NCBI GenBank assembly: GCA_944372485.1
Contig: CALVZI010000030.1
Span: 1-34,525, forward strand
Origin: an uncultured Bacilli bacterium
Lineage (GTDB): Bacteria > Bacillota_I > Bacilli_A > RF39 > UBA660
DNA: 34,525 nt
Direction: 5' to 3'
Both the position numbers and the translations under genes were made by a program. A model generated the notes under the pieces. The model was not told where the DNA came from. It searched no databases and was given only the letters and a program-made list of their open reading frames with translations. Position 1 is the stretch's first letter. Each line of letters begins with the position of its first letter. Shown piece by piece: positions 2-17,123 of the stretch.

Positions 2-658
2 ACGGATCCATATATGTTCGAAGATAAGAGTAGTAGTGTAACAGGAACATTAAAAGATAATAGCGAAATAGGAGAATATGTAACATATGCTGGAAGAAAT
101 TATCGAGTAGTAGAAACTAGTGAATCAGGTACAAAATTAATACTTGATGGATATTATGATAGAAATAATGATGGAACAATAGAAGAATCAGATAAAATGG
201 TATATGGAACAAATTGTACATTGTGTACAACAATAAATGAAGATAATTTTATAAATTGGTTAAGTAATAATAATGAAACTGAAAAACAAAAACTTGCAAG
301 TACAACCTGGTATCGAGGAGATAATTGGACAGGTGGTAATTATAAAACAAATTTAGAAAGTATGAGTAATCCATACGAAGGAAGTGTAGGTTTAATAAGA
401 GTAGGAGAAATGTTATCAGGACAAAGTGAAACAATACTTTCAAAAAATCATACTGTTGCAAATGATTATAATAATGCACAAGATTATTGGACTGCAACAT
501 CATATAGTGCTTCTCAAGCTTGGAACGTGGGCTATGACGGTATTGCGAACGGCAATTCTCATTCCATTGCGGGTGGTGTGCGTCCAGTTATAAACATCTC
601 ATCTGAAATAACTATTACCGGAGGTAATGGTACTCCAAATAGTCCATATGAGATATAA
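2..658 (+). CDS. 3' part (5'-truncated by the window edge) of a DUF6273/C-type-lectin-like surface protein; putative DGR target, paralog of 15182-16987
   Basis: Frame is open from position 2 (acg gat cca tat atg). 1-658 aligns without gaps to 16330-16987 (offset 16329; first 60 nt identical), so ATG14 is an internal Met. C-terminus YWTAT..AWxV..GVRPVI is typical of CLec-fold DGR targets. Confidence 0.85.
   Translation, partial: TDPYMFEDKSSSVTGTLKDNSEIGEYVTYAGRNYRVVETSESGTKLILDGYYDRNNDGTIEESDKMVYGTNCTLCTTINEDNFINWLSNNNETEKQKLASTTWYRGDNWTGGNYKTNLESMSNPYEGSVGLIRVGEMLSGQSETILSKNHTVANDYNNAQDYWTATSYSASQAWNVGYDGIANGNSHSIAGGVRPVINISSEITITGGNGTPNSPYEI
512..586 (+). repeat. Variable-region-like cassette VR-A
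   Basis: GC-rich island (GCG/GTG/GGC codons) at the gene 3' end, homologous to 16205-16279 and 16841-16915. Divergence from the paralog is concentrated here. Confidence 0.75.
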
Positions 659-2794: not shown

Positions 2795-3518
2795 ATTTTT
2801 TTATTTTTTGTAATCTAAATTTAATTTTATTTATTAAACTATTATCATACGCTTGGAATTCTTCATAAATTCTTTTAAAGACAATTGGTAGGTCTTCATA
2901 TTCCATAGTCAATGCACTGTAAAATTTATTAGGGATTTTATTTAGTTCAACTTCTTTTAGTTTATTATCAACTTGTTTTATTAAAAATTGTTCATTTAAA
3001 TTAAATTTTAATACATAAGTTTCTTGATTAGGTAAATCTTGAACCTCAATCATATAATAAGAATTATTAAAAAATAAATCAATACTTTCATTTGTAAAAG
3101 TTTTATCGATAACTTTTTTTAAATTATGATCTTCTTCAATTTGTTCTAAAAGATAATTATCTTCACTAGCAACAGTTTCAAAATAAGTATTACTTGTAAC
3201 ACCGTTTTTTGTTGGAATTGGGTCATTACTTTTATAATAAGTTACCTGGTTACCATTCGCATCTGTGATGTTTAAAGCTAAATCATAATTGTTTTCTGCT
3301 TCTTTAATTTCAACAGGATTTTCTTCATCAAAATCTAAATATGATTTATTCATTTGTTCTTGAATTGGTTCTAATTTTTTTTGAATAACGGCTTCTTCAA
3401 CAGTATCTATATTATCGTTATTTTTTACATCATCTTTATAAGTTATGTTAATTCTATCTTTATAGTAATTTAATAATTTAATAAATTCATCTAATGTTAT
3501 TTGATTTTTTTCTTTCAT
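2793..3518 (-). CDS. Hypothetical protein
   Basis: 241-aa ORF with a GGGGG RBS-like run upstream on the minus strand (3526-3530); no recognised motif. Confidence 0.75.
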   Translation of the reverse strand: MKEKNQITLDEFIKLLNYYKDRINITYKDDVKNNDNIDTVEEAVIQKKLEPIQEQMNKSYLDFDEENPVEIKEAENNYDLALNITDANGNQVTYYKSNDPIPTKNGVTSNTYFETVASEDNYLLEQIEEDHNLKKVIDKTFTNESIDLFFNNSYYMIEVQDLPNQETYVLKFNLNEQFLIKQVDNKLKEVELNKIPNKFYSALTMEYEDLPIVFKRIYEEFQAYDNSLINKIKFRLQKIKK

Positions 3519-3639
3519 ATTTTTGCCCCCTTAAATGAGTATATGACTTTTCAATAGAAAAGTAAAGTAATATACCCAAATTTTCATCTTTTTTTCACAA
3601 ATAAATCTAAAATATTGTATAATGTAGTTGGTGATTAAT

Positions 3640-4353
3640 GTGCAGAGATATTTTGCTTATAAAAAAGAATTTGATAATTTTGTTTTAGAAGAATATGATA
3701 CTCATCATATAACTAAAGTAATGCGACTTAACATTGGTGATTTAATTGAAGTTGTTTATGACTCTGTTTGTTATGAATGTGAGATTGTTGGTGTTTCTAA
3801 AAATATAATGGTTAAAAAAATTAAAGAAATACAAAAACAAGAAAAAGAATTTGGAGAAATAACTTTGGTTATACCTGTTTTAAAAGAATTTAAAATGGAT
3901 CTAATATTACAAAAAGCAACCGAACTTGGAATTGATAATATTATTCCGATTCGAACTGAAAGATCAGTTGTTAAAATTGATAGTAAAAAAGAAGAAAAAA
4001 AGTTAGAAAGATGGAAGAGTATCGTTAAAGAAGCAAGTGAACAATCTAAACGTTTAACGATACCTAATATTTCTAATATTAAAGATATAAAAGATTTAAA
4101 AAATATTGATGGTGATAAAATAATTTGTTCTACTAGAGAACCTAAAAATAATCTAAAAATATTTTTGCAAAAGCATAATAAGTATGATAAAATGTTATTA
4201 GTAGTAGGTCCTGAAGGTGGCTTTACTTTAAAAGAAGAAAATGCTTTTATAGACAATGGTTTTATACCTGTTACTTTAGGTAAAAATATTATGCGGGTTG
4301 AAACGGTGCCACTTTTCTGTTTGAGTGCTATTATGTATGAATTTATGGAGTGA
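3640..4353 (+). CDS. rsmE: 16S rRNA m3U1498 methyltransferase
   Basis: MQRYF start (GTG3640), HHITKVMRL, QKATELG, EASEQS, VGPEGGF, LGKNIMRVET SPOUT motifs. Confidence 0.96.
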   Translation: MQRYFAYKKEFDNFVLEEYDTHHITKVMRLNIGDLIEVVYDSVCYECEIVGVSKNIMVKKIKEIQKQEKEFGEITLVIPVLKEFKMDLILQKATELGIDNIIPIRTERSVVKIDSKKEEKKLERWKSIVKEASEQSKRLTIPNISNIKDIKDLKNIDGDKIICSTREPKNNLKIFLQKHNKYDKMLLVVGPEGGFTLKEENAFIDNGFIPVTLGKNIMRVETVPLFCLSAIMYEFME

Positions 4354-4357
4354 TAAG

Positions 4358-5002
4358 ATGGATAGTAAAATGTTTGTATTAATAATTTTAATTGTTGCTT
4401 TTGTTCTTTTAATTTGTTGTTTTGTTTATTTATCTTACGCTAAAAAACAACAAGAAAAATATGAAGAAAAGTTAATTAAAGAAATAAAGAAAAATAAAGA
4501 AGTTGAAAGTCCTAAAGAAGAATTTAAACCAAAGAAAAATCAAGTCGATTTAGAAGCAATGTTGGAAAAAATGCAACAAGATTTAGAAGGGCAAAATAAA
4601 GACAAGGTTGCCAACTTTGAACAAGAACAAGAAGATACTTCAATTATTAGTTATAAAGAATTAAAAAAAGCTGTAGAAGAGTTTGATGAAAGTGAAGAAT
4701 TAGCTCAAGAAGAAAGTCCAATTTCGGTACAAGATGTTCTTGCTATGCGTAAAGAAGAGATAGAAAAACAAGAAGATCCAATTCTTTCAATGTTAGATAA
4801 AAAGAGCAATTCTAAAGAAGCTAAGAAATTTCACAATACTGATTTTATCTCACCAATCTATGGAAAACAAGAAACTAAAACAGAATATCCTAAAGTTCCT
4901 GTTTATGAAGAACAAGAAGAGATTTTAAGTGTATTAAATGATGATACTCTAGAAAATGAAAAGTTTTTAAATGAGTTAAAAGATTTTCGTAAGCAATTAT
5001 AG
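4358..5002 (+). CDS. Hypothetical protein with N-terminal membrane anchor and charged coiled-coil-like tail
   Basis: One TM segment followed by an E/K-rich region containing FISPIYG; start set to ATG4358 after a GGAGTGA RBS. Confidence 0.75.
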   Translation: MDSKMFVLIILIVAFVLLICCFVYLSYAKKQQEKYEEKLIKEIKKNKEVESPKEEFKPKKNQVDLEAMLEKMQQDLEGQNKDKVANFEQEQEDTSIISYKELKKAVEEFDESEELAQEESPISVQDVLAMRKEEIEKQEDPILSMLDKKSNSKEAKKFHNTDFISPIYGKQETKTEYPKVPVYEEQEEILSVLNDDTLENEKFLNELKDFRKQL

Positions 5003-5016
5003 AAGGTTGTGATAAC

Positions 5017-6306
5017 ATGAGTTTTAAAATATTAACACTAGGTTGTAAAGTAAATACTTATGAATCTAATGTTATGCGTGAATTACTTTTAAAAGAAGGA
5101 TATAAAGAAGTAGGACATAAAGAACCTGCTGATATTGTAATAATTAATACTTGTTCAGTTACTAATGTTGCTGATCAAAAATCACGAAAAATGATACGTA
5201 AAAGTGCAAAAGAAAATCCTAAAGTTTTATGTGTTGTTGGATGTATGAGTCAACACGAATATGAAACACTAGAAGAACTAGATTGTATTGATATATTACT
5301 TGGTAATAGTGGTAAGAGTAATATAGTTTTATATATTAAAGAGCTTTTAAAAACAAATAAGAAAATAGTTGATATAAAAAATTTAAATGAAACACCTTTT
5401 GAAGATATGAATTTAGTTAATTTTAATCAAACAAGAGCTTTTGTAAAAATTGAAGATGGTTGTGAAAACTTTTGTACTTATTGTATTATTCCATATACTA
5501 GAGGACCTGTTAAAAGTAGACGTAGAGAAAATATTTTAGAAGAAGTTTGTGAACTAGTTAGGCATGGTCACAAAGAAGTTGTTTTAACAGGGATTCATAC
5601 TGGACATTATGGAAGTGATTTAAAAGATTTAACTTTAACTTCACTTCTTGAAGATTTAATAAAAATACCAGGATTAGAACGTATTCGTATTTCTTCAATT
5701 GAGATGAATGAAATAACTAGTGATATGTTAAAGTTAATGCATGATAATAAAGTTTTAGTAAGACATATGCATATTCCTTTACAAAGTGGAAGTGAAGATA
5801 TTTTAAAAGCTATGCATCGTAAATATACTAAACAAGAATTTATTGATAAAATTAGTGAAATTAGAAGTTATATGCCTGATATTTCAATTACAACTGATGT
5901 TATAGTTGGTTTTCCAGGTGAAACTGAAGAATTATTTAATGAAACAATTGAAATAGTTAAAAAAATTGGTTTTGCTAAAATTCATGTTTTTCCATATTCT
6001 AAACGTAATGGAACTGTTGCAGCTACTTTAGAAAATCAAGTTCCAGAAAATATAAAAAAGGAACGTGTTCACAAATTACTTAGTGTTTCTAAAGATTTAG
6101 AAAATAATTATATGAATAAGTTTATTGGAAAAGTTATTACTTTTTTACCAGAAATAGAAAAAGATGGATATATTATTGGTCATACTGGTAATTATTTATT
6201 AGTAAAAGTACCAGGAACTAAAGATGATTTAAATAAAATTATTAAAGTTGTTTTAACTAATAATGAATATCCATATATGAAAGGAGAAATGTATGCCGAA
6301 ATTTAG
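5017..6306 (+). CDS. mtaB: tRNA t6A37 methylthiotransferase (radical SAM)
   Basis: TLGCKVNTYES, INTCSVT, CENFCTYC, IVGFPGET, HVFPYSKR; lies downstream of rsmE. Confidence 0.95.
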   Translation: MSFKILTLGCKVNTYESNVMRELLLKEGYKEVGHKEPADIVIINTCSVTNVADQKSRKMIRKSAKENPKVLCVVGCMSQHEYETLEELDCIDILLGNSGKSNIVLYIKELLKTNKKIVDIKNLNETPFEDMNLVNFNQTRAFVKIEDGCENFCTYCIIPYTRGPVKSRRRENILEEVCELVRHGHKEVVLTGIHTGHYGSDLKDLTLTSLLEDLIKIPGLERIRISSIEMNEITSDMLKLMHDNKVLVRHMHIPLQSGSEDILKAMHRKYTKQEFIDKISEIRSYMPDISITTDVIVGFPGETEELFNETIEIVKKIGFAKIHVFPYSKRNGTVAATLENQVPENIKKERVHKLLSVSKDLENNYMNKFIGKVITFLPEIEKDGYIIGHTGNYLLVKVPGTKDDLNKIIKVVLTNNEYPYMKGEMYAEI

Positions 6307-7258
6307 TATTATAGTACCTGTTTATAATGTTGAAGATTATATTGAAAAATGTTTAGATTCAATTTGTAATCAAACATTTGAAGATTTCGAAGTAATTGTT
6401 GTAAATGATGGAACTAAAGATAATTCAGGTTATTTTATTGATGAATTTGCTAAAAAGGATAAAAGAATACGTTCATTTAAAAAACGTAATGGGGGATTAT
6501 CAAGTGCTCGTAATTTTGGTGTAAAAAAAGCTCGTGGAGCTTATATACTTTTTGTTGATAGTGATGATTGTATTGAAAAAGATTTATTAAAAAAACTTAA
6601 TGCAGTAATTGAAAAGAATAAAGATTTAGATTTAATTCGTTTTCAAATAAATGAAGTTAATGAATATACGAATAAATCTCAAAAGTTAGATAGTACCGTT
6701 TTTGATGTTTGTAGTGGGGAAGTTGGTTTTGTTAAATTAACAACTAATTCTTTATTAGAACCAGCTTGGGCTTATGCTTATAAAAGTGATTTCTTTAAAA
6801 AATATAATTTTATGTATGCTAGTGGTAAGTTACACGAAGATTTTGGTTTAACACCATATATAATTGTTAAAGCAAAAAAAATGTGTTCTATAGATTATTA
6901 TGGTTATAATTATTTAATTCGTGAAAATAGTATTATGACTAGTGCTAGTGAAGATAAATTAATTGCTCGTGCTAATGATACTTTATATCACTTTGATAAT
7001 TTATTAAAATGGATTGATGAAGATAAAAGTGTTAGTGAGGACACAAAAAAAGTATTTCGTAGTTTTATTGCTAATGTATTAATTTCTAAATCAATAATTG
7101 TTCCAAAAGCTTATTTAAAATTTTATATTAAAGAATTAAAGAAAAGAAATATTAGTAAATATTTACTTTCTAATAATATTCCAAGATTAGTAAAAAAATT
7201 AGTTATTAAATTTGATTTAGATTTATATATAAATAAAGTTTCTAGAAAAATTAGTTAG
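6293..7258 (+). CDS. Glycosyltransferase family 2
   Basis: SIIVPVYNVE, VNDGTKD, NGGLSSARN, FVDSDD, HED motifs. Confidence 0.93.
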   Translation: MPKFSIIVPVYNVEDYIEKCLDSICNQTFEDFEVIVVNDGTKDNSGYFIDEFAKKDKRIRSFKKRNGGLSSARNFGVKKARGAYILFVDSDDCIEKDLLKKLNAVIEKNKDLDLIRFQINEVNEYTNKSQKLDSTVFDVCSGEVGFVKLTTNSLLEPAWAYAYKSDFFKKYNFMYASGKLHEDFGLTPYIIVKAKKMCSIDYYGYNYLIRENSIMTSASEDKLIARANDTLYHFDNLLKWIDEDKSVSEDTKKVFRSFIANVLISKSIIVPKAYLKFYIKELKKRNISKYLLSNNIPRLVKKLVIKFDLDLYINKVSRKIS

Positions 7259-7268
7259 GAGAATTATT

Positions 7269-8231
7269 ATGCCTAAAATTAGTGTTATTGTACCAGTTTA
7301 TAATGTTGAAGCTTATTTAGAAAAAAGTTTAAATAGTTTAAAAAATCAAACATTTAAAGATTTAGAATTTATTATTGTGGATGATGGAAGTACTGATGGT
7401 AGTGCTAAAATTATTAAAGAATTTGTTAAAAGTGATAAACGTTTTAGTTACCATAAAAAGAAAAATGGTGGTTTAAGTGATGCCAGAAATTATGGTATGA
7501 AGTATGCAACTGGTAAGTATCTTGCTTTTTTAGATAGTGATGACTATATTGACTTAGATTTATATGAAAAGATGTATGAAAAAGCAGTAGAAACTAAAGC
7601 TGATGTTGTTGAAGCAGACTTTATTTGGGAATACCCAAATAAACAAGTAAAAGATATTAGTAAAGTAACTGATTTAGGTAGATTACTAGTTGATATTAGA
7701 GTTGTTGCTTGGAACAAATTATATAAAAAATCTTTGATTGATAAAATTGGCGTTAAATTTTCAAAAGGATTACGTTATGAAGATGTTGATTGGTGCTATA
7801 AAATAGTTCCATATATAAAAAAATTTGCTAGTGTTCATGGTACATATATTCACTATATTCAAAGACCAAATTCAATTGCTAATACACAAAATGAAAAAGT
7901 TAGAGATATTTATAAAATATTAGAAAATGCAGTTATATATTATCAAGAAAATAATTTATTAAATAAATATTTTTATGAATTAGAATATTCTTGTTTAAGA
8001 ATTATTTATGGTAGTTCTTTTTTAAGAGTTATGGGAATTAATAATAAAAAACTTAGAAATAGTATTATTAAAGAAGGAACTGATTTTTTAAATAAATATT
8101 TTCCTAATTATCAAAAAAATATTTATTTATTAAGTGATAAAACAAAAAAGAATTATTATTATCGAACTATTAATTCTTTGACACTTCCAATATATATAAA
8201 ACTATTTAGATTATTAAAGAAGGTGAAGTAA
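7269..8231 (+). CDS. Glycosyltransferase family 2
   Basis: SVIVPVYNVE, VDDGSTD, NGGLSDARN, FLDSDD, WNKLY, YED motifs. Confidence 0.93.
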   Translation: MPKISVIVPVYNVEAYLEKSLNSLKNQTFKDLEFIIVDDGSTDGSAKIIKEFVKSDKRFSYHKKKNGGLSDARNYGMKYATGKYLAFLDSDDYIDLDLYEKMYEKAVETKADVVEADFIWEYPNKQVKDISKVTDLGRLLVDIRVVAWNKLYKKSLIDKIGVKFSKGLRYEDVDWCYKIVPYIKKFASVHGTYIHYIQRPNSIANTQNEKVRDIYKILENAVIYYQENNLLNKYFYELEYSCLRIIYGSSFLRVMGINNKKLRNSIIKEGTDFLNKYFPNYQKNIYLLSDKTKKNYYYRTINSLTLPIYIKLFRLLKKVK

Positions 8232-10725: not shown

Positions 10726-11615
10726 AAATATCAATTTTAACAGCTACATATAACCGAGAACATTTACTTCCTAAGTTATATAATAGTCTAATAGAGAATA
10801 GTAAAACTTTTACTAACTTTGAATGGTTAATTATGGATGATGGATCTAGTGATAATACAGAAGGATTAGTAAAAGGTTGGATTAAAGAAAATAAGATTAA
10901 AATAAAATATCATAAACAAAAAAATGCTGGTAAAATGGCAGCTATTAATAATTTAAGTAAATATGTAACAGGTGAAATTTGGATTGAAGTAGATAGTGAT
11001 GATTATTTTATAGATGGGGTATTAAAAGATATTTCTAAAGATTATGAAACTTTAGATAAAAAAGCTTATGGAATTTTATATTATCGTAAAATACTTAATG
11101 CAGAAACACCAAAAGATGAAAGTTTAAATAATAAAATTATTTCTTTATATCACTTTCACTATAAATATGGATATACTTATGATACTGCTTTGACTTTTAG
11201 AACTAGTGTTCGTAAAAAGTTTAAATATGAACTAGAACACAATGAAAAATTTATTACGGAAGCTAGAACCTATTATAAAATGGATTTGGATAGGGATGGT
11301 TTATTAATTTCTAATAAAGATATTATGATAGCTAATTATGAAGAAGATGGTTATACAAAAGGTATAGTTAATTTATTTAAAAAATATCCATATGGTTATT
11401 ATGAATTTTTTAAAGAATTACTTAATTACCCTAAGCAAGATATTTTATTTAAACAACGTCTATATATGGTAAAACATTACATTTTATTTAGCGTTTTGAC
11501 AAAAATCGGGTTTACTAAAAGTGTTAAGCATGTTAAAATATTAAAGAATAGAGTGATGGTAATGTTATTATATTTTCCTGGAATGGTAAAAACAAAGATA
11601 AAATTTAGGGGGTAA
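10722..11615 (+). CDS. Glycosyltransferase family 2
   Basis: ILTATYNR, DDGSSD, NAGKMAAIN, VDSDD, EKFITE. Confidence 0.92.
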   Translation: MKISILTATYNREHLLPKLYNSLIENSKTFTNFEWLIMDDGSSDNTEGLVKGWIKENKIKIKYHKQKNAGKMAAINNLSKYVTGEIWIEVDSDDYFIDGVLKDISKDYETLDKKAYGILYYRKILNAETPKDESLNNKIISLYHFHYKYGYTYDTALTFRTSVRKKFKYELEHNEKFITEARTYYKMDLDRDGLLISNKDIMIANYEEDGYTKGIVNLFKKYPYGYYEFFKELLNYPKQDILFKQRLYMVKHYILFSVLTKIGFTKSVKHVKILKNRVMVMLLYFPGMVKTKIKFRG

Positions 11616-11617
11616 TT

Positions 11618-13834
11618 ATGAAAAAGAGTACAAAATCAGTAATGCTTACAATGGGATGTTTATATTGTGGAATGACTTCTGTTAATGCTTTAGAAAGTAA
11701 TACTAATGAAGTTTCCAAAAGTACAGTAGAAACTGCTGAAACAAAAACTTTAACAACATCAGCTCCAAAAACTGGTTGGACTACAATTAATGGGGATACC
11801 TATTATATTAATCCGGATGGTAGTAAGTATACCGGTTTTTTAGAGTGGGAAGGTAATACTTATTTCTTTAGTCGTGTTGATGGTAAAATGCGTACTGGTT
11901 ATTTTTCAATTGATTATAACAATTATTATTTTGATAATGATGGAAAAATGTTAACAGGTTGGCAAACAATAAATAAAAAAACATATTATTTTGATCAAGA
12001 CGGAAAACAACATTATGGATTCTTAAAACTAGATGATGGAACATATTTCTTAAGTAGAGTAGATGGAACAAAAAGAACAGGATATTTCTCAATAGATTAT
12101 GTAAATTATTATTTTGACAACAATGGAAAAATGCTAACAGGTTGGCAAACAATAAATAAAAAAACATATTATTTTGATCAAGACGGAAAACAACATTATG
12201 GATTCTTAAAACTTAGTGATGGAACATATTTCTTAAGTAGAGTAGACGGAACAAAAAGAACAGGATATTTTTCAATTGATTATGAGAATTATTATTTTGA
12301 TAATGATGGAAAAATGTTAACAGGTTGGCAAACGATAGATAATAAAACATTTTATTTTGATCAAAATGGGAAACAACATTATGGATTCTTGAAACTAGAT
12401 GATGGAACATATTTCTTAAGTAGAGTAGATGGAACAAAAAGAACAGGATATTTCTCAATAGATTATGTAAATTATTATTTTGACAACAATGGAAAAATGT
12501 TAACAGGTTGGCAAACAATAAATAAAAAAACATATTATTTTGATCAAAACGGAAAACAACATTATGGATTCTTAAAACTAGATGATGGAACATATTTTTT
12601 AAGTAGAGTAGATGGAACAAAAAGAACAGGATATTTCTCAATAGATTATATAAATTATTATTTTGATAGTAATGGTAAAATGCAAACTGGTATTCAAACA
12701 GTTAAAGGTAAAAAATATTTCTTTAATAGTGAAGGAAAACAAGTTAATGGTTTGCAAAAATGGAATGGACACTATTATTTCTTTAGTCGTGTAAATAATG
12801 AAATGCGTACTGGTTTATTTCAAATAGATTATGTATTACATTATTTTAAGGAAGATGGTACTGCTTATAATGGTATTTATACTAAGGGAAAGGATAAATA
12901 TTATTTTGATAGTAAGGGTGCTATTAAAAATGGTTTCCAAAAAGTTGATGGTAAGACATATTTCTTTAGTAGGGTAGACTTTAGAATGCGTTTTGGATGG
13001 GTGTTTGTTGATGGCTATAAATATTATTTAGATAAAACAACTGGTGAAGTACATACGGGAATATATCGTGTTGATGGTATTGATTATAAATTTGATAGTG
13101 CTGGACGATTACAAACAGGTTGGCTTGAAAGTGATGGAAAAACTTACTATTTAAATGCCTATGGAGAAAAAGTTGTCGATTGGCAATGGATTGAAGGGGA
13201 AAAATGTTTCTTTAATTCACTTGGTGTTTTAATAAAAAAGAATGCTAAATATATTATTGATGTTTCAACACATCAAGGTAAAATAGATTGGGGTAAAGTA
13301 AAAAATGCTGATATGATTGATGGAGTTATTCTCCGAATCGGTTATGGAAGTTATTATGAAGATGGACAAGTTGCAGCTAATATCAAAGCTTTAAAACGTT
13401 TAAATATTCCATATGGTGTATATTTGTTTAGTTATGCAGAAAATAAAAGTGAAGCATTAAAAGAGTCAAAAAATATGTTAAATATTATCAAAAAATATGA
13501 TATGAAACCTACATTAGGAGTTTATTATGATATTGAATCTTGGGAATTATCAAATGCTAGTTCAAGTAATATTACAACTGCTAAATATGATGAGATAATA
13601 ACAACATTTGTTAATAATATGCATAATTCAGGTTATAAGGATACTTATGTATATACAGATTTAAATCATATAAGGAATATCTTAAGTACTAATATGCGTA
13701 AATATATTAGATGGGTTGCTCAATATAATCATTATTGTAATTATGATGGTGAATATTTTATGTGGCAATATTCTAGTAGTGAAAGAATTCCAGGTATTAG
13801 TACTAATGTTGATGGAAATGTTTGGTTTAAGTAG
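11618..13834 (+). CDS. Secreted GH25 muramidase with choline/glucan-binding-type cell-wall-binding repeats
   Basis: Signal peptide (..SVNA), many ~20-aa YYF..G.M.TGW repeats, C-terminal GH25 motifs IDVSTHQGKIDW, YYDIE, WQYSS, NVDGN. Confidence 0.9.
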   Translation: MKKSTKSVMLTMGCLYCGMTSVNALESNTNEVSKSTVETAETKTLTTSAPKTGWTTINGDTYYINPDGSKYTGFLEWEGNTYFFSRVDGKMRTGYFSIDYNNYYFDNDGKMLTGWQTINKKTYYFDQDGKQHYGFLKLDDGTYFLSRVDGTKRTGYFSIDYVNYYFDNNGKMLTGWQTINKKTYYFDQDGKQHYGFLKLSDGTYFLSRVDGTKRTGYFSIDYENYYFDNDGKMLTGWQTIDNKTFYFDQNGKQHYGFLKLDDGTYFLSRVDGTKRTGYFSIDYVNYYFDNNGKMLTGWQTINKKTYYFDQNGKQHYGFLKLDDGTYFLSRVDGTKRTGYFSIDYINYYFDSNGKMQTGIQTVKGKKYFFNSEGKQVNGLQKWNGHYYFFSRVNNEMRTGLFQIDYVLHYFKEDGTAYNGIYTKGKDKYYFDSKGAIKNGFQKVDGKTYFFSRVDFRMRFGWVFVDGYKYYLDKTTGEVHTGIYRVDGIDYKFDSAGRLQTGWLESDGKTYYLNAYGEKVVDWQWIEGEKCFFNSLGVLIKKNAKYIIDVSTHQGKIDWGKVKNADMIDGVILRIGYGSYYEDGQVAANIKALKRLNIPYGVYLFSYAENKSEALKESKNMLNIIKKYDMKPTLGVYYDIESWELSNASSSNITTAKYDEIITTFVNNMHNSGYKDTYVYTDLNHIRNILSTNMRKYIRWVAQYNHYCNYDGEYFMWQYSSSERIPGISTNVDGNVWFK
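11890..12690 (+). repeat. Intragenic tandem repeat, 183-bp (61-aa) unit, about 4.4 copies
   Basis: AAGTAGAGTAGA(T/C)GGAACAAAAAGAACAGGATATTT recurs at 12052, 12235, 12418 and 12601 (period 183). Array ends are approximate. Confidence 0.95.
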
Positions 13835-15028: not shown

Positions 15029-15050
15029 TGAAATCTAAAAAGATTTTTTT
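15018..15050 (+). terminator. Intrinsic terminator
   Basis: AATCTTTTTAG-tgaaat-CTAAAAAGATT followed by a T run. Confidence 0.65.
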
Positions 15051-15130
15051 GTAATATACTATTTTTAAATAAACTAATTTAATAGTAAAAATAAGACAAA
15101 TATCTTAACAAAATTTTACATTAATCTCTA

Positions 15131-15159
15131 TTGACAAAACATACCTTTTAACTTAGAAT
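15131..15159 (+). promoter_or_regulatory. Sigma-A promoter of the putative DGR target gene
   Basis: TTGACA (15131-15136), 17-nt spacer, TAGAAT (15154-15159); RBS GGGAG upstream of ATG15182. Confidence 0.75.
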
Positions 15160-15181
15160 TAATAATAGGGAGATGATATAA

Positions 15182-16987
15182 ATGAGAATGTCTACAAGAA
15201 AGAGAAAAAATATTATTATTGTAATATTACTCGTAATGGTAGTAGGAATGACTATAGCTTATTCAGCATTAAGCCAGTATCTAACAATAAATGGTACATC
15301 AAGTATTACTAGTGATTTTAAAGTAGTATTTACTGATATACAGGAAGGAACAATGAATTCTGCAACTACAGTTAATAAAGAAATAACAGCTCCAACAACA
15401 GCAACTTTCCAAGTAAATTTAAAAAAACCAGGAAGCAGTGCTGAATATAATGTAACAGTGCAAAATCAAGGTAAGTTAGATGCATACTTAGAAAGCATAG
15501 AAGGAATAGATGAAGCAAATGAAAAAGCTCCAACAGATATAACTTTTAAAATAAGTGGAATAACAAGATATACAAAATTACAAGTAAATGAATCGAAAAC
15601 ATTTAAAGTAATAGTAACATTTGATTCTAGTGCAACAAGCTTGCCTTCTGAATCGAAGCAATTAACACTAAAACTTAATTTTGCTCAAGATAGTGGAAAT
15701 GCTCCAGAACCTGAACCAGAGCAACAAACAGTAACAGAAATAACTAATACATTATTAAGTAGTGGTACAACCTATAATTATTTAGATGGAACATATCTAA
15801 AAGGTAAACCAACTACAAACTATGTATGGTTTAATGGATTTATGTGGCGAATCATGGGAGTGAATGCAGATGGAAGTATTCGCATGATAACAGAAGAAAA
15901 TGTAACAACAATCCCACGGGGAGCAAAAGATACTGCAGAACAATATGATAGTAGTTATGTAAATGATTGGTTAAATAATTATTTTTATTCAAAATTAAAA
16001 AATAAAGAATGGTTAGTACAACAAACATGGTGTAGTGAAACAACAGAAGATGATACATCAGCCCGAACAACATGTTCAAAAAATTTATCACAAATACCAC
16101 AATATGTAGGTTTACTATCAATAGATGAATATAATTTAGCAAGTAACTCATCAAGTTATTTAGTAAATTCACAAATATTTTGGACATTAACGCCATATAG
16201 TGCTTCAGATGCTTGGGACGTGTACAGCGATGGCTATGCGAGCAATTATTCTGTGTCTTATGCGCGCGGGCTTCGTCCAGTTATAAATGTCTCATCTGAA
16301 ATAACCATTACCGGAGGTAATGGTACTCTAACGGATCCATATATGTTCGAAGATAAGAGTAGTAGTGTAACAGGAACATTAAAAGATAATAGTCAAATAG
16401 GAGAATATGTAACATATGCTGGAAGAAATTATAGAGTAGTAGAAACAGGGACAAGTGGAACAAAATTAATACTTGATGGATATTATGATAGTGATAATAA
16501 TGGAACAATAGATTCATCAGATAAAATGGCATATGGAACAAACTGTACATTGTGTACAACAATAAATGAAGATACTTTCTTAAATTGGTTAAGTAATAAT
16601 GATGAAACTGAAAAAGCTAAACTTGCAAGTACAACATGGTATCGAGGAGATTATTGGACTGATGGTAATTATAAAACGAATTTAGAAAGTATAAGTAATT
16701 CATATAATGGAAGTGTAGGGTTGATTCGAGTAGGAGAAATGTTATCTGGGCAAAGTGAAACAATACTTTCAAAAAACCATACCGTAACAAATAGTTATAA
16801 TAATGCAGTAACATATTGGACTGCAACACCATATAGTGCTTCCTATGCTTGGCGCGTGAGCTACTTTGGCGATGCGTCCATTACTTCTGTGTCTTATGCG
16901 AACGGGCTTCGTCCAGTTATAAATATCTCATCTAAAATAACCATTACCGGAGGTAATGGTACTCCAAATTCACCATATGAGATATAA
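15182..16987 (+). CDS. Exported surface protein: signal/anchor, beta-rich stalk, PEPEPE linker and two tandem DUF6273/CLec-like domains; putative DGR target with two variable regions
   Basis: Basic-hydrophobic N-terminus ending in AYSALSQYLTING. Two domains each end W(T)xTPYSAS.AW.V...G.A.....S.A.GLRPVIN.SS.ITITGGNGT...PY. Confidence 0.85.
   Translation: MRMSTRKRKNIIIVILLVMVVGMTIAYSALSQYLTINGTSSITSDFKVVFTDIQEGTMNSATTVNKEITAPTTATFQVNLKKPGSSAEYNVTVQNQGKLDAYLESIEGIDEANEKAPTDITFKISGITRYTKLQVNESKTFKVIVTFDSSATSLPSESKQLTLKLNFAQDSGNAPEPEPEQQTVTEITNTLLSSGTTYNYLDGTYLKGKPTTNYVWFNGFMWRIMGVNADGSIRMITEENVTTIPRGAKDTAEQYDSSYVNDWLNNYFYSKLKNKEWLVQQTWCSETTEDDTSARTTCSKNLSQIPQYVGLLSIDEYNLASNSSSYLVNSQIFWTLTPYSASDAWDVYSDGYASNYSVSYARGLRPVINVSSEITITGGNGTLTDPYMFEDKSSSVTGTLKDNSQIGEYVTYAGRNYRVVETGTSGTKLILDGYYDSDNNGTIDSSDKMAYGTNCTLCTTINEDTFLNWLSNNDETEKAKLASTTWYRGDYWTDGNYKTNLESISNSYNGSVGLIRVGEMLSGQSETILSKNHTVTNSYNNAVTYWTATPYSASYAWRVSYFGDASITSVSYANGLRPVINISSKITITGGNGTPNSPYEI
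16205..16279 (+). repeat. Variable-region-like cassette VR-B1 (internal)
   Basis: Differs from 16841-16915 at 18 positions; 17 are codon positions 1-2 of NNC/NNT codons. Confidence 0.85.
16841..16915 (+). repeat. Variable-region-like cassette VR-B2 (C-terminal)
   Basis: Same fixed scaffold as VR-B1 (GCT TGG nnC GTG nnC nnC nnT GGC nAT GCG nnC AnT nnT TCT GTG TCT TAT GCG nnC GGG CTT CGT CCA), 636 nt downstream of it. Confidence 0.85.
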
Positions 16988-17019
16988 GGAAGTTGAAACG
17001 ATAATAATAAATAAGTAAT

Positions 17020-17059
17020 CCCCCACGTGGCGTATTTGCCACAGCGGGTGCTTTTTTTT
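17020..17059 (+). terminator. GC-rich hairpin / intrinsic terminator after the putative DGR target
   Basis: GTGGC-gtattt-GCCAC core, extendable with CCC/GGG, followed by T8. Confidence 0.7.
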
Positions 17060-17077
17060 GTTTTAATTAGGTTTTGT

Positions 17078-17106
17078 TTGACTTAAATAATATTTATATA
17101 TATAAT
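17078..17106 (+). promoter_or_regulatory. Sigma-A promoter
   Basis: TTGACT-N17-TATAAT upstream of ATG17124. Confidence 0.7.
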
Positions 17107-17123
17107 TAATTTGGTGATATTGT

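What the first reader, a model, noticed from the sequence alone, without database searches (positions are those of the whole stretch)
16205..16915. Two cassettes in one gene carry the adenine-mutagenesis signature of a DGR
Seen: VR-B1 (16205-16279) and VR-B2 (16841-16915) share a fixed scaffold but differ at 10 codons: GAT/TAT, GAC/CGC, TAC/AGC, AGC/TAC, GAT/TTT, TAT/GAT, AGC/TCC, AAT/ATT, TAT/ACT, CGC/AAC. All 17 of these mismatches are at codon positions 1-2 with an invariant third C/T. The only other mismatch is TCA/TCC at the 5' edge. Ordinary drift gives the opposite pattern, and the AGC/TCC Ser pair is best explained by independent derivation from AAC. Known: DGR reverse transcriptases mutate template adenines in AAC/AAT codons and diversify C-type-lectin-fold domains ending in GxRP. 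Inference: both derive from one template close to AAT GCT TGG AAC GTG AAC AAC AAT GGC AAT GCG AAC AAT AAT (TCT/AAT) GTG .. .. GCG AAC GGG CTT CGT CCA, giving a protein with two independently diversified binding domains, one of them internal.
Basis: partly seen in the sequence, partly recalled or inferred. Interest (0 to 1): 0.9.

Follow-up and report, generated by a model that had tools for sequence, protein, structure and literature searches.

The report
Two-headed DGR target gene, template elsewhere
This gene encodes a surface protein with two lectin-like binding domains whose tips were each rewritten by a diversity-generating retroelement found elsewhere in the same small gut-bacterial genome; this mechanism is well known, here in a multi-copy form.

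Summary
VR-B1 and VR-B2 differ at 18 bases, 17 at codon positions 1-2 of ten NNY codons. Two adenine-rich template repeats exist in the same genome, C16:5652-5721 and C77:3091-3160. 17 of the 18 differences fall on TR-C16 adenines (24 A in 82 nt; p = 3.5e-11).

C77 carries a full cassette: two-VR target, TR, MutS-like gene, Avd, RT. The RT's best solved relative is PDB 8ub7 (E 5e-29), which I recall to be the Bordetella phage DGR RT.

The genome has at least 15 such VRs in about 10 paralogous genes. One VR (C18) matches TR-C77 perfectly: 15/21 A sites changed, 0/41 non-A.

Both domains are DUF6273, with moderate structural similarity to C-type lectins.

Caveat: neither assembled TR matches the window's VRs exactly. 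Three internal non-A mismatches and three at the 3' end are shared by both VRs. Their template is therefore an unassembled or older TR allele, and current activity is unproven.

This is a new member of a known kind.

The parts
15131..15159 (+). promoter-like site (TTGACA, 17 nt, TAGAAT; 11 of 12) just upstream of the target gene
   Evidence: a consensus match only
15182..16987 (+). DGR target gene, 601 aa. It has an N-terminal hydrophobic helix, a beta-sandwich domain and two DUF6273 domains, each ending in a VR.
15182..15706 (+). N-terminal part. The predicted helix covers residues 5-33 (low pLDDT) and is read as a signal or membrane anchor. A beta-sandwich covers residues ~47-175. There is a weak camelysin/TasA-family hit (PF12389, E 0.002, below its cut-off).
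15734..16357 (+). DUF6273 domain 1 (residues ~185-392)
   Evidence: PF19789 at 37.2 bits against a cut-off of 23.5. VIA Z 17.1 to the 9qa6_A N-terminal domain. Z 7.5 to Lcl C-terminal domain 8q4e, Z about 6 to many C-type lectins, Z 6.3 to TvpA 2y3c.
16205..16279 (+). VR-B1, the internal variable repeat. The tract likely to be overwritten is 16208-16269.
   Evidence: 12 of 23 A sites and 3 of 39 non-A sites differ from TR-C16
16281..16324 (+). 3' flank of VR-B1: a 23-nt spacer, then an inverted repeat ACCATTACC-gga-GGTAATGGT (16304-16324). It is a candidate target-recognition hairpin and encodes ...ITITGGNG.
   Evidence: DNA fold -7.8 kcal/mol, z -2.0. The function is inferred by analogy with PMC3240598.
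16358..16984 (+). DUF6273 domain 2 (residues ~393-601)
   Evidence: hhalign of domain-1 profile against domain-2 profile: probability 99.5%, E 2.3e-22, 174 columns. In the full-length model most 10-residue blocks after residue 400 have mean pLDDT 87-95; the exceptions are 521-530 (68) and 531-540 (58).
16841..16915 (+). VR-B2, the C-terminal variable repeat. The tract likely to be overwritten is 16844-16905.
   Evidence: 14 of 23 A sites and 3 of 39 non-A sites differ from TR-C16
16917..16960 (+). 3' flank of VR-B2: a 23-nt spacer, then the same 9-bp inverted repeat (16940-16960)
   Evidence: (z -3.6)
17020..17059 (+). GC-rich hairpin followed by a T run (terminator-like). On C77 and C16 the same hairpin is followed by the TR instead. 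No TR is present here.
2..658 (+). C-terminal domain of a paralogous target gene, cut by the contig start. Its first 300 nt are 91% identical to 16330-16629.
506..587 (+). Third VR of the window. It fits TR-C77 better than TR-C16 (6 against 10 non-A mismatches). Its downstream inverted repeat is weakened to 6 bp.

Best explanation
The gene at 15182-16987 is a remote (trans) target of a chromosomal diversity-generating retroelement.

Shown:
- The protein has two tandem homologous DUF6273 domains.
- Each domain ends in a ~75-nt variable repeat.
- The repeats differ from each other only at positions where the genome's template repeats carry adenine.
- The same genome has one MutS-like/Avd/RT operon beside a TR on contig C77.
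- A second TR without an adjacent RT lies on C16.
- The genome has at least 15 VRs of this type in about 10 paralogous genes.
- One VR, on another contig (C18), is a perfect adenine-only derivative of TR-C77.

Inferred:
- TR RNA is reverse-transcribed by RT-Avd with misincorporation opposite A.
- The cDNA replaces each VR independently.
- Targeting is guided by the GC-rich VR 3' end and probably by the 9-bp inverted repeat 23 nt downstream. This repeat is present after both VRs, so an internal VR can be addressed like a terminal one.
- The result is a surface protein with two separately randomised ligand-binding pockets.

Both VRs carry an identical non-A scaffold that differs from both assembled TRs. 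They were therefore last written from a third TR allele, either unassembled or since changed. Whether they are still being rewritten is open; I put it at about even odds. The confidence given here is for the claim that the two VRs were written by a DGR.
For: - **VR differences.** 17 of 18 VR-B1/VR-B2 differences fall on TR-C16 adenines, p = 3.5e-11. All variable codons are NNY.
- **A bias in the window.** In the tract 16208-16269 and 16844-16905, A sites are mismatched 12/23 and 14/23 against TR-C16. Non-A sites are mismatched 3/39 each. The A bias is 80% and 82%; Fisher p = 1.4e-4 and 1.1e-5.
- **A bias genome-wide.** Across the 13 VRs of equal length, column entropy is 1.51 bits at A columns and 0.41 at non-A columns.
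- **A perfect pair.** C18 VR against TR-C77: 15/21 A sites changed, 0/41 non-A.
- **Cassette on C77**:
  - RT: PF00078 at 52.8 bits. Best PDB hit 8ub7, E 5e-29, with PIGNMSSQ aligned to PIGSLTSQ and YMDD present.
  - Avd: PF22296 E 1.9e-9 and NF033474 E 8e-10, both below the curated cut-offs.
  - MutS_I: 21.3 bits against a cut-off of 20.6.
- **Localised variability.** Paralogues are 85-97% identical in DNA outside the VRs and 66-74% inside them.
- **Family-wide variability.** 65 homologues show hypervariable columns exactly at the VR positions.
- **Shared scaffold.** The two domains share only 34% identity in the profile-profile alignment. Yet their VR scaffolds agree at 57 of 58 TR-C16 non-A positions. 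Plain gene conversion would have erased the A-site differences as well.
- **Literature.** DUF6273 with a VR at its C-terminal end is a published DGR target type (passages of PMC10743442 and PMC11792537).
Against: - **No exact template.** Neither assembled TR is an exact non-A match. There are 7 non-A mismatches to TR-C16 and 10-11 to TR-C77 (positions 1-81). These include 3 in the GC-rich 3' end (GGG CTT against GGC TTG).
- **No third TR found.** It was not found in the assembly. A degenerate TR pattern found nothing in genome contigs or metagenome contigs.
- **More alleles implied.** Third-position C/T states shared by several VRs but absent from both TRs (for example position 29 = C in six VRs) imply further TR alleles or post-homing drift.
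- **No population variation shown.** The four runs laid were Logan contigs and were fragmentary.
- **Hairpin weaker than the published pattern.** It has 4 GC pairs in 9 and a 3-nt loop. The published pattern is a GC-rich stem with a 4-nt GRNA loop (passages of PMC3240598).
- **Hairpin conservation not special.** It is no greater than that of the rest of the domain.
- **Possible strain mixing.** The assembly has 98 contigs and 6.67% contamination, so TR-C16 and TR-C77 could come from different strains.
Confidence: 0.9

Rival explanations
1. Relic targets. Both VRs were written by a DGR in the past, from a TR allele that no longer exists. They are no longer recognised and now evolve as ordinary coding sequence. 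This rival overlaps the best explanation: it accepts DGR origin and disputes only current activity.
For: - Both VRs share 7 non-A mismatches to the nearest assembled TR, 3 of them in the GC-rich 3' end where integration is expected.
- No TR follows this gene: the hairpin that precedes the TR on C77 and C16 is followed here by a T run.
- Some family members look decayed. C83 has 13-18 non-A mismatches and no downstream inverted repeat.
Against: - The two VR scaffolds have at most one non-A difference between them, so little time has passed since both were written.
- Both keep the full 9-bp inverted repeat, and all variable codons are still NNY.
- Even the perfect C18/TR-C77 pair differs from its TR at 2 positions in the last 10 nt, so 3'-end mismatches do not by themselves exclude homing.
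- The A bias of 80-82% passes the 75% or more criterion used for secondary targets in PMC8144416 (passage).
Confidence: 0.4
2. No retroelement is involved. The two cassettes are hotspots of diversifying selection, or of recombination among paralogues.
For: There are about 10 paralogues at 85-97% DNA identity, which could exchange segments.
Against: - Selection or recombination does not confine changes to positions that are A in a non-coding repeat elsewhere (17 of 18; p = 3.5e-11).
- Neither keeps every third position fixed.
- The TRs, Avd and a DGR-type RT are present.
Confidence: 0.03
3. Assembly artefact. The VR sequences are consensus mixtures of strains or paralogues in a metagenome bin, and do not exist as written.
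For: - The assembly has 98 contigs and 6.67% contamination.
- Many contigs break inside this gene family.
- Public contigs over the region are short and fragmentary.
Against: - The gene is intact, in frame and embedded in a 34.5-kb contig with unique flanks.
- A mixed consensus would not give clean NNY codons with a perfect shared scaffold.
- Hundreds of homologues from other assemblies have the same two-VR layout.
Confidence: 0.04

Closest known systems
Bordetella phage BPP-1 DGR (mtd VR, TR, avd, brt)
   Same: - Adenine-specific TR-to-VR differences in AAY codons.
- Avd plus an RT whose best solved relative is 8ub7 (E 5e-29). That 8ub7 is the BPP-1 RT is my recollection; the table only says 'Reverse transcriptase'.
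- VR at the C-terminal end of a lectin-like domain.
- A GC-rich VR 3' end followed by an inverted repeat (passages of PMC3240598).
   Different: - Chromosomal rather than phage-borne.
- TR of about 80 nt.
- Gene order is target, TR, MutS-like, avd, RT.
- Many remote targets.
- The inverted repeat is AT-richer, has a 3-nt loop and lies inside coding sequence.
MSL-containing DGRs ('Architecture D' of Wu et al. 2018, PMC5758913)
   Same: A small MutS-like protein (133 aa here; 112-283 aa in the paper) occurs together with avd, with no HRDC gene (passages).
   Different: I could not see that paper's supplementary tables, so I cannot say whether this lineage or this target type is among its 16 MSL DGRs.
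Phage DUF6273 DGR targets (tentaclins of phages nd4 and nd12; Faecalibacterium prophages)
   Same: - DUF6273 domain, C-type-lectin-like, with the VR mapping to the C-terminal end of the domain (passages of PMC10743442 and PMC11792537).
- The RT here is about 40% identical to the RT region of phage nd12.
   Different: - Here the protein is cellular.
- It has an N-terminal anchor and beta-sandwich.
- It has two DUF6273 domains in tandem, each with its own VR.
- The gene is multiplied to about 10 copies.
Multi-target DGRs (Treponema denticola TvpA family; DGRs with several VRs in one ORF, Yan et al. 2019, PMC6642488)
   Same: - One RT serves many paralogous lectin-fold targets.
- 31 DGRs with several VRs in one ORF are reported (passage).
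- TvpA (2y3c) is a weak structural match, Z 6.3.
   Different: - Two VRs lie in two separate tandem domains.
- At least two TR alleles are present, one of them without an adjacent RT.
- The host genome is only 1.18 Mb.
N-terminal DUF6273 domain of Thomasclavelia ramosa IgA peptidase (PDB 9qa6)
   Same: Best solved structural match to domain 1: Z 17.1, rmsd 2.6 over 185 residues, 22% identity. The paper names this domain DUF6273 (passage of PMC12402451).
   Different: That domain is part of a peptidase and is not reported as diversified. The passages I read give no function for it.

Membership tests
Diversity-generating retroelement (system level, in this genome) | Reverse transcriptase of the DGR type | tested here: met
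   C77:4125-5126, 333 aa. PF00078 at 52.8 bits. Best PDB hit is 8ub7, E 5e-29, with PIGNMSSQ aligned to PIGSLTSQ and YMDD present. That [I/L/V]GxxxSQ is the DGR hallmark, and that 8ub7 is the BPP-1 RT, are recalled. It is the only RT found in the assembly.
Diversity-generating retroelement (system level, in this genome) | TR/VR pair whose mismatches are confined to template adenines | tested here: met
   C18:7371-7440 against TR-C77: 15/21 A sites changed, 0/41 non-A in the 62-nt tract.
Diversity-generating retroelement (the window's two VRs as targets) | Mismatches to a TR strongly biased to adenines | tested here: met
   Against TR-C16 the A bias is 80% (12 A, 3 non-A) and 82% (14 A, 3 non-A) in the tract. 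17 of 18 inter-VR differences lie at TR adenines.
Diversity-generating retroelement (the window's two VRs as targets) | A cognate TR identical at all non-A positions | tested here: not met
   7 non-A mismatches to TR-C16 and 10-11 to TR-C77. No third TR in the assembly or in two public collections. The assembly is 91% complete in 98 contigs, so absence is not shown.
Diversity-generating retroelement (the window's two VRs as targets) | Observed variation at VR A-derived sites within a population or between strains | tested here: inconclusive
   Only Logan contigs were available. They were short and confounded by paralogues.
Diversity-generating retroelement (the window's two VRs as targets) | Target-recognition element (IMH-like 3' end plus hairpin or cruciform downstream of the VR) | tested here: inconclusive
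   A 9-bp inverted repeat lies 23 nt after both VRs, and after 10 of the 15 VRs of the genome; 2 more have an 8-bp form at the same place. Background: 54 of 3000 random 70-nt windows have a stem of 9 bp or more. The stem is not GC-rich, the loop is 3 nt, and its conservation does not exceed that of the domain.
Diversity-generating retroelement (system level, in this genome) | Avd accessory protein | tested here: inconclusive
   C77:3791-4150. PF22296 at 38.4 bits (cut-off 40). NF033474 at 39 bits (cut-off 80). E values about 1e-9, with full-length alignments.
MSL-type DGR (Wu et al. 2018) | Small MutS-like accessory gene together with avd | tested here: met
   C77:3409-3810, 133 aa. PF01624 MutS_I at 21.3 bits against a cut-off of 20.6, covering only residues 5-37. 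This is a marginal match.
DUF6273 (PF19789) | Profile match over the curated cut-off | tested here: met
   Domain 1: 37.2 bits against 23.5. Domain 2 in the paralogue alone scores 19.6 bits, below the cut-off, but is homologous to domain 1 by hhalign at 99.5%.
C-type lectin fold of DGR variable proteins | Structural similarity of the VR-bearing domain to CLec-fold proteins | tested here: inconclusive
   Domain 1 of the model (mean pLDDT 86.7) scores Z 7.5 to Lcl 8q4e, Z 6.0-6.4 to more than 10 C-type lectins and Z 6.3 to TvpA 2y3c. By the tool's own note these Z values are middling. The domain-2-only model was too poor to search (pLDDT 52).

The most novel reading that the evidence does not exclude
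This 1.18-Mb genome may run a distributed DGR network. A single MutS-like/Avd/RT operon would serve several dispersed TR alleles: two are assembled, one of them an 'orphan' TR with no adjacent RT, and at least one more is implied by the window's VR scaffold. Together these would rewrite roughly 15-20 VRs in about 10 two-headed DUF6273 surface proteins, including internal VRs addressed through a recognition hairpin written into coding sequence. The operon's promoter-like hexamers are separated by a 23-nt spacer that contains (GT)11, so RT expression could be switched on and off by repeat slippage. That would give population-level control of hypermutation.
Probability: 0.3. Interest if true: 0.65.

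Novelty: new member of a known kind. Interest (0 to 1): 0.45.

Why it matters
**Method.** A reader without tools correctly predicted a retroelement template from two variable cassettes alone. That validates the signature it used: a fixed third position, changes only at codon positions 1-2, and two different Ser codons that both derive from AAC.

**Biology.**
- A host-associated bacterium with a very small genome spends about 1.5% of its DNA on some ten paralogous surface proteins. Each carries two independently randomisable lectin-like pockets.
- A single RT is present. The genome therefore suits the study of how one DGR addresses many remote and internal targets, and how TR alleles and target sets co-evolve.
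- None of the individual components is new. Avd, MSL, DUF6273 targets and several VRs in one ORF are all in print.

Tried and rejected
- **Third TR in the assembly.** blastn-short with all three window VRs, and blastn with the C77 TR region, found only TR-C16 and TR-C77.
- **TR in public collections.** An exact 30-nt TR-flank pattern found 0 hits in metagenome contigs. A degenerate TR pattern found 0 hits in genome contigs and 0 in metagenome contigs. The tool notes that records of the own genome may be left out.
- **TR in the genus.** The TR-plus-flank DNA query over the 4 other genomes of the genus found only the TR's downstream flank, at the end of contig G003:C77; the TR itself is cut off. 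G002 has a different DGR with an unrelated TR.
- **Read-level variation.**
  - All 24 listed runs are Logan contigs; none holds half the words.
  - Laying X1, X2, X15 and X16 gave short pieces from many paralogues, so no verdict on polymorphism is possible.
  - X1 and X15 do hold contigs in which the post-gene hairpin runs on into a TR-like sequence.
- **Foldseek with the whole model.** It gave no clear fold for the VR domains, so I used the wide VIA search instead.
- **Domain 2 folded alone.** With 15 sequences the model had pLDDT 52.4. It is unusable and I did not search with it.
- **PDB sequence search with the domain-1 profile.** 0 hits at E of 1 or less.
- **Rfam on the two TR loci.** 0 matches at E of 0.1 or less.
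- **Is the hairpin under special DNA-level constraint?** No. The whole domain is 85-97% identical among paralogues.
- **Does each TR 3'-end type route its own set of VRs?** By my hand subtraction of the 3'-end positions from the mismatch lists, internal scaffold positions do not separate the sets. The idea is unsupported.
- **RT and target co-occurrence across the family.** By my hand tally of the two tables, the target query hits 23 of 33 RT-positive genomes and 34 of 47 RT-negative genomes among the 80 other genomes. There is no association. The query also hits N-terminal-only paralogues, so the test is blunt.
- **Literature on this lineage.** One search combining the DGR term with RF39, Tenericutes, Mycoplasmatota or Erysipelotrichales listed 12 papers, none containing the DGR term. 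That is one search, not proof that nothing is in print.
- **Supplements.** Supplementary tables of PMC5758913 and PMC6642488 could list this or related elements. I could not see them.
- **First hand-in.** I added it and sent the report again.
Full report
**1. The observation**

The ORF 15182-16987 (+) encodes 601 aa. The two cassettes are at the stated coordinates. That is 17 mismatches at codon positions 1-2 of NNY codons, plus TCA/TCC at the 5' edge.

It is in the C-terminal domain of a paralogue truncated by the contig start. The window is a whole contig, C30, of a 1.18-Mb assembly. That assembly has 98 contigs, 91% completeness and 6.67% contamination.

**2. The template and the enzymes exist**

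A short-word BLAST of the cassettes against the whole assembly found copies on nine other contigs. Two of the matches are made of AAY codons and lie in non-coding DNA just downstream of paralogous genes:
- TR-C77 at C77:3091-3160 (+)
- TR-C16 at C16:5652-5721 (-)

The only RT in the assembly is on C77. The cassette reads as follows:

| Element | C77 coordinates | Evidence |
|---|---|---|
| Target with two VRs | 1166-2998 | |
| GC hairpin | downstream of the target | |
| TR | 3091-3160 | |
| Inverted repeat plus T run | ~3316-3340 | read by eye; the scan listed no terminator here |
| MutS-like ORF | 3409-3810 | PF01624 21.3 bits, cut-off 20.6 |
| Avd | 3791-4150 | PF22296 E 1.9e-9 and NF033474 E 8e-10, both below curated cut-offs |
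| RT | 4125-5126 | PF00078 52.8 bits |

- The RT's best solved relative is 8ub7 (E 5e-29). PIGNMSSQ aligns with PIGSLTSQ, and YMDD is present.
- I recall 8ub7 to be the BPP-1 RT; the table names it only as reverse transcriptase.
- The RT is about 40% identical to RT regions of DGR-bearing phages, including phage nd12.
- The MSL-plus-Avd combination is a described DGR architecture (passages of PMC5758913).

**3. Statistics**

- 17 of the 18 VR-B1/VR-B2 differences sit on TR-C16 adenines (24 A in 82 nt), p = 3.5e-11. For TR-C77 it is 16 of 18.
- Among the 13 VRs of equal length, A columns carry 1.51 bits of entropy and non-A columns 0.41 (Mann-Whitney p = 1.8e-10). The copies are paralogues, so this p value overstates independence.
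- Two VRs with indels (C55:11650, C77:2207) were left out of these counts.
- In the 62-nt tract that seems to be overwritten (position 9-70 of the 82-nt comparison), the counts against TR-C16 are:

| VR | A sites mismatched | Non-A sites mismatched | A bias |
|---|---|---|---|
| VR-B1 | 12/23 | 3/39 | 80% |
| VR-B2 | 14/23 | 3/39 | 82% |

- The C18 VR is a perfect derivative of TR-C77: 15/21 A sites changed and 0/41 non-A. The element has therefore acted in trans in this genome, on a target that the assembly places on another contig.

**4. What does not fit**

- The window's VRs carry 7 non-A mismatches to TR-C16 and 10-11 to TR-C77.
- Both VRs share them: one at the 5' edge, three third-position C/T changes, and three in the GC-rich 3' end.
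- Several third-position states are shared by up to six VRs of the genome but by neither TR.
- The two domains share only 34% identity in the profile-profile alignment. An identical scaffold combined with different A sites therefore means both were copied from one template.
- That template is not in the assembly. A degenerate pattern did not find it in two public collections.
- Even the perfect C18 pair differs from its TR at two of the last ten bases. The extreme 3' end is thus probably not overwritten.
- I conclude that the VRs are DGR-written (about 0.9). I leave open whether they are still being rewritten (about 0.5).

**5. How an internal VR could be addressed**

- TR/VR homology ends at ...CGTCCAG.
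- After both VRs come 23 nt and then a 9-bp inverted repeat with a 3-nt loop. It encodes ITITGGNG.
- Of the 15 VRs of the genome, 10 have the full 9-bp repeat. Two have an 8-bp form, two a 6-bp remnant, and one none.
- A G001 paralogue has a different 8-bp inverted repeat at a similar place.
- BPP-1 needs a hairpin or cruciform downstream of the VR. Other DGRs show 7-10-bp GC-rich stems with GRNA loops, 4-34 bp downstream (passages of PMC3240598).
- The repeat here is AT-richer and its loop differs. Its conservation is no greater than that of the rest of the domain. Its role is therefore inferred, not shown.

**6. The protein**

- The AF2 model (65 sequences, mean pLDDT 86.7) shows an N-terminal helix and a beta-sandwich (residues ~47-175), followed by two globular domains.
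- Domain 1 is DUF6273.
- Its structural matches are:
  - the DUF6273 N-terminal domain of the T. ramosa IgA peptidase, Z 17.1;
  - Lcl (8q4e), Z 7.5;
  - many C-type lectins, Z about 6;
  - TvpA (2y3c), Z 6.3.
- Domain 2 is homologous to domain 1 (hhalign 99.5%).
- DUF6273 as a lectin-like DGR target with the VR at its C-terminal end is published for phages.
- Several VRs within one ORF are also reported: 31 DGRs in PMC6642488.

**7. Context**

- The genome holds 3 complete genes of this family, 7 C-terminal fragments and 6 N-terminal fragments at contig ends. That makes about 10 genes.
- Hundreds of homologues exist with the same about-600-aa layout, and some of about 880 aa. One is named from a Candidatus Pelethosoma bin.
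- RT homologues at E of 1e-20 or less occur in 33 of 80 other genomes of the family.
- The window's gene has its own promoter-like site and terminator-like hairpin.
- In G003 its two flanking genes lie 59 nt apart. The gene is therefore an insertion or deletion polymorphism within a glycosyltransferase-rich locus.

**8. Verdict**

It is a new member of a known kind, and is notable for three things:
- the tandem two-VR design;
- the number of remote targets in a very small genome;
- the presence of more than one TR allele.

Noticed in passing
G000 contig C77:3351-3385 (L001:514-548): TTGACA and TATAAT hexamers lie upstream of the MutS-like/avd/RT operon, separated by a 23-nt spacer containing (GT)11. 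This is the only dinucleotide run of 7 or more units in the whole 1.18-Mb assembly. Three fewer units would give a 17-nt spacer, so RT expression might be phase-variable. The promoter scan did not list it because the spacer lies outside 16-18 nt.
   Followed up: partly
G000 contig C16:5471-5823 (L086): A second TR with about 190 nt of the same downstream flank (93% identical to C77 over 354 nt) but no RT operon after it. Next come a 707-aa protein with a Peptidase_S24-like domain and, further on, a short S26-like ORF. It is either an orphan TR or a variant from another strain.
   Followed up: partly
window 15029-17123, compared with G003:C120:2627-2687: In a genome of the same genus the two genes flanking the target gene are adjacent, 59 nt apart. 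Here they are about 2.1 kb apart. The whole target gene, with its promoter and terminator, is an insertion or deletion polymorphism.
   Followed up: partly
window 11618-13834: A 738-aa ORF with five 183-nt tandem units (88-92% identical, the last one 63%), built of about 60-nt sub-repeats. The YYFD..GK..TGW motif reads like cell-wall or choline-binding repeats; that name is recalled and was not tested.
   Followed up: no
window 17020-17059, C77:3022-3052, C16, C28:1086-1159: The same GC-rich hairpin follows the stop codon of several family members. In the window it is followed by a T run and looks like a terminator. On C77 and C16 it runs straight into the TR, which suggests that the TR RNA could be made by read-through from the target gene.
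   Followed up: partly
C77:5272-5784 and many short ORFs in relatives (for example G002:C21, C5, C1): Small paralogues of 170-200 aa consist only of the N-terminal anchor and beta-sandwich of the target protein, without DUF6273 domains. The N-terminal part gives a weak camelysin/TasA-family hit (PF12389, E 0.002, below its cut-off). This may point to a fibre or stalk module.
   Followed up: no
window 6292-7400 and 10797-11030: Neighbouring ORFs share 57-67-nt stretches at 70-88% identity (families D7, D10, D11 and D13). This suggests paralogous genes in a polysaccharide locus; they look like glycosyltransferases, which I did not test.
   Followed up: no
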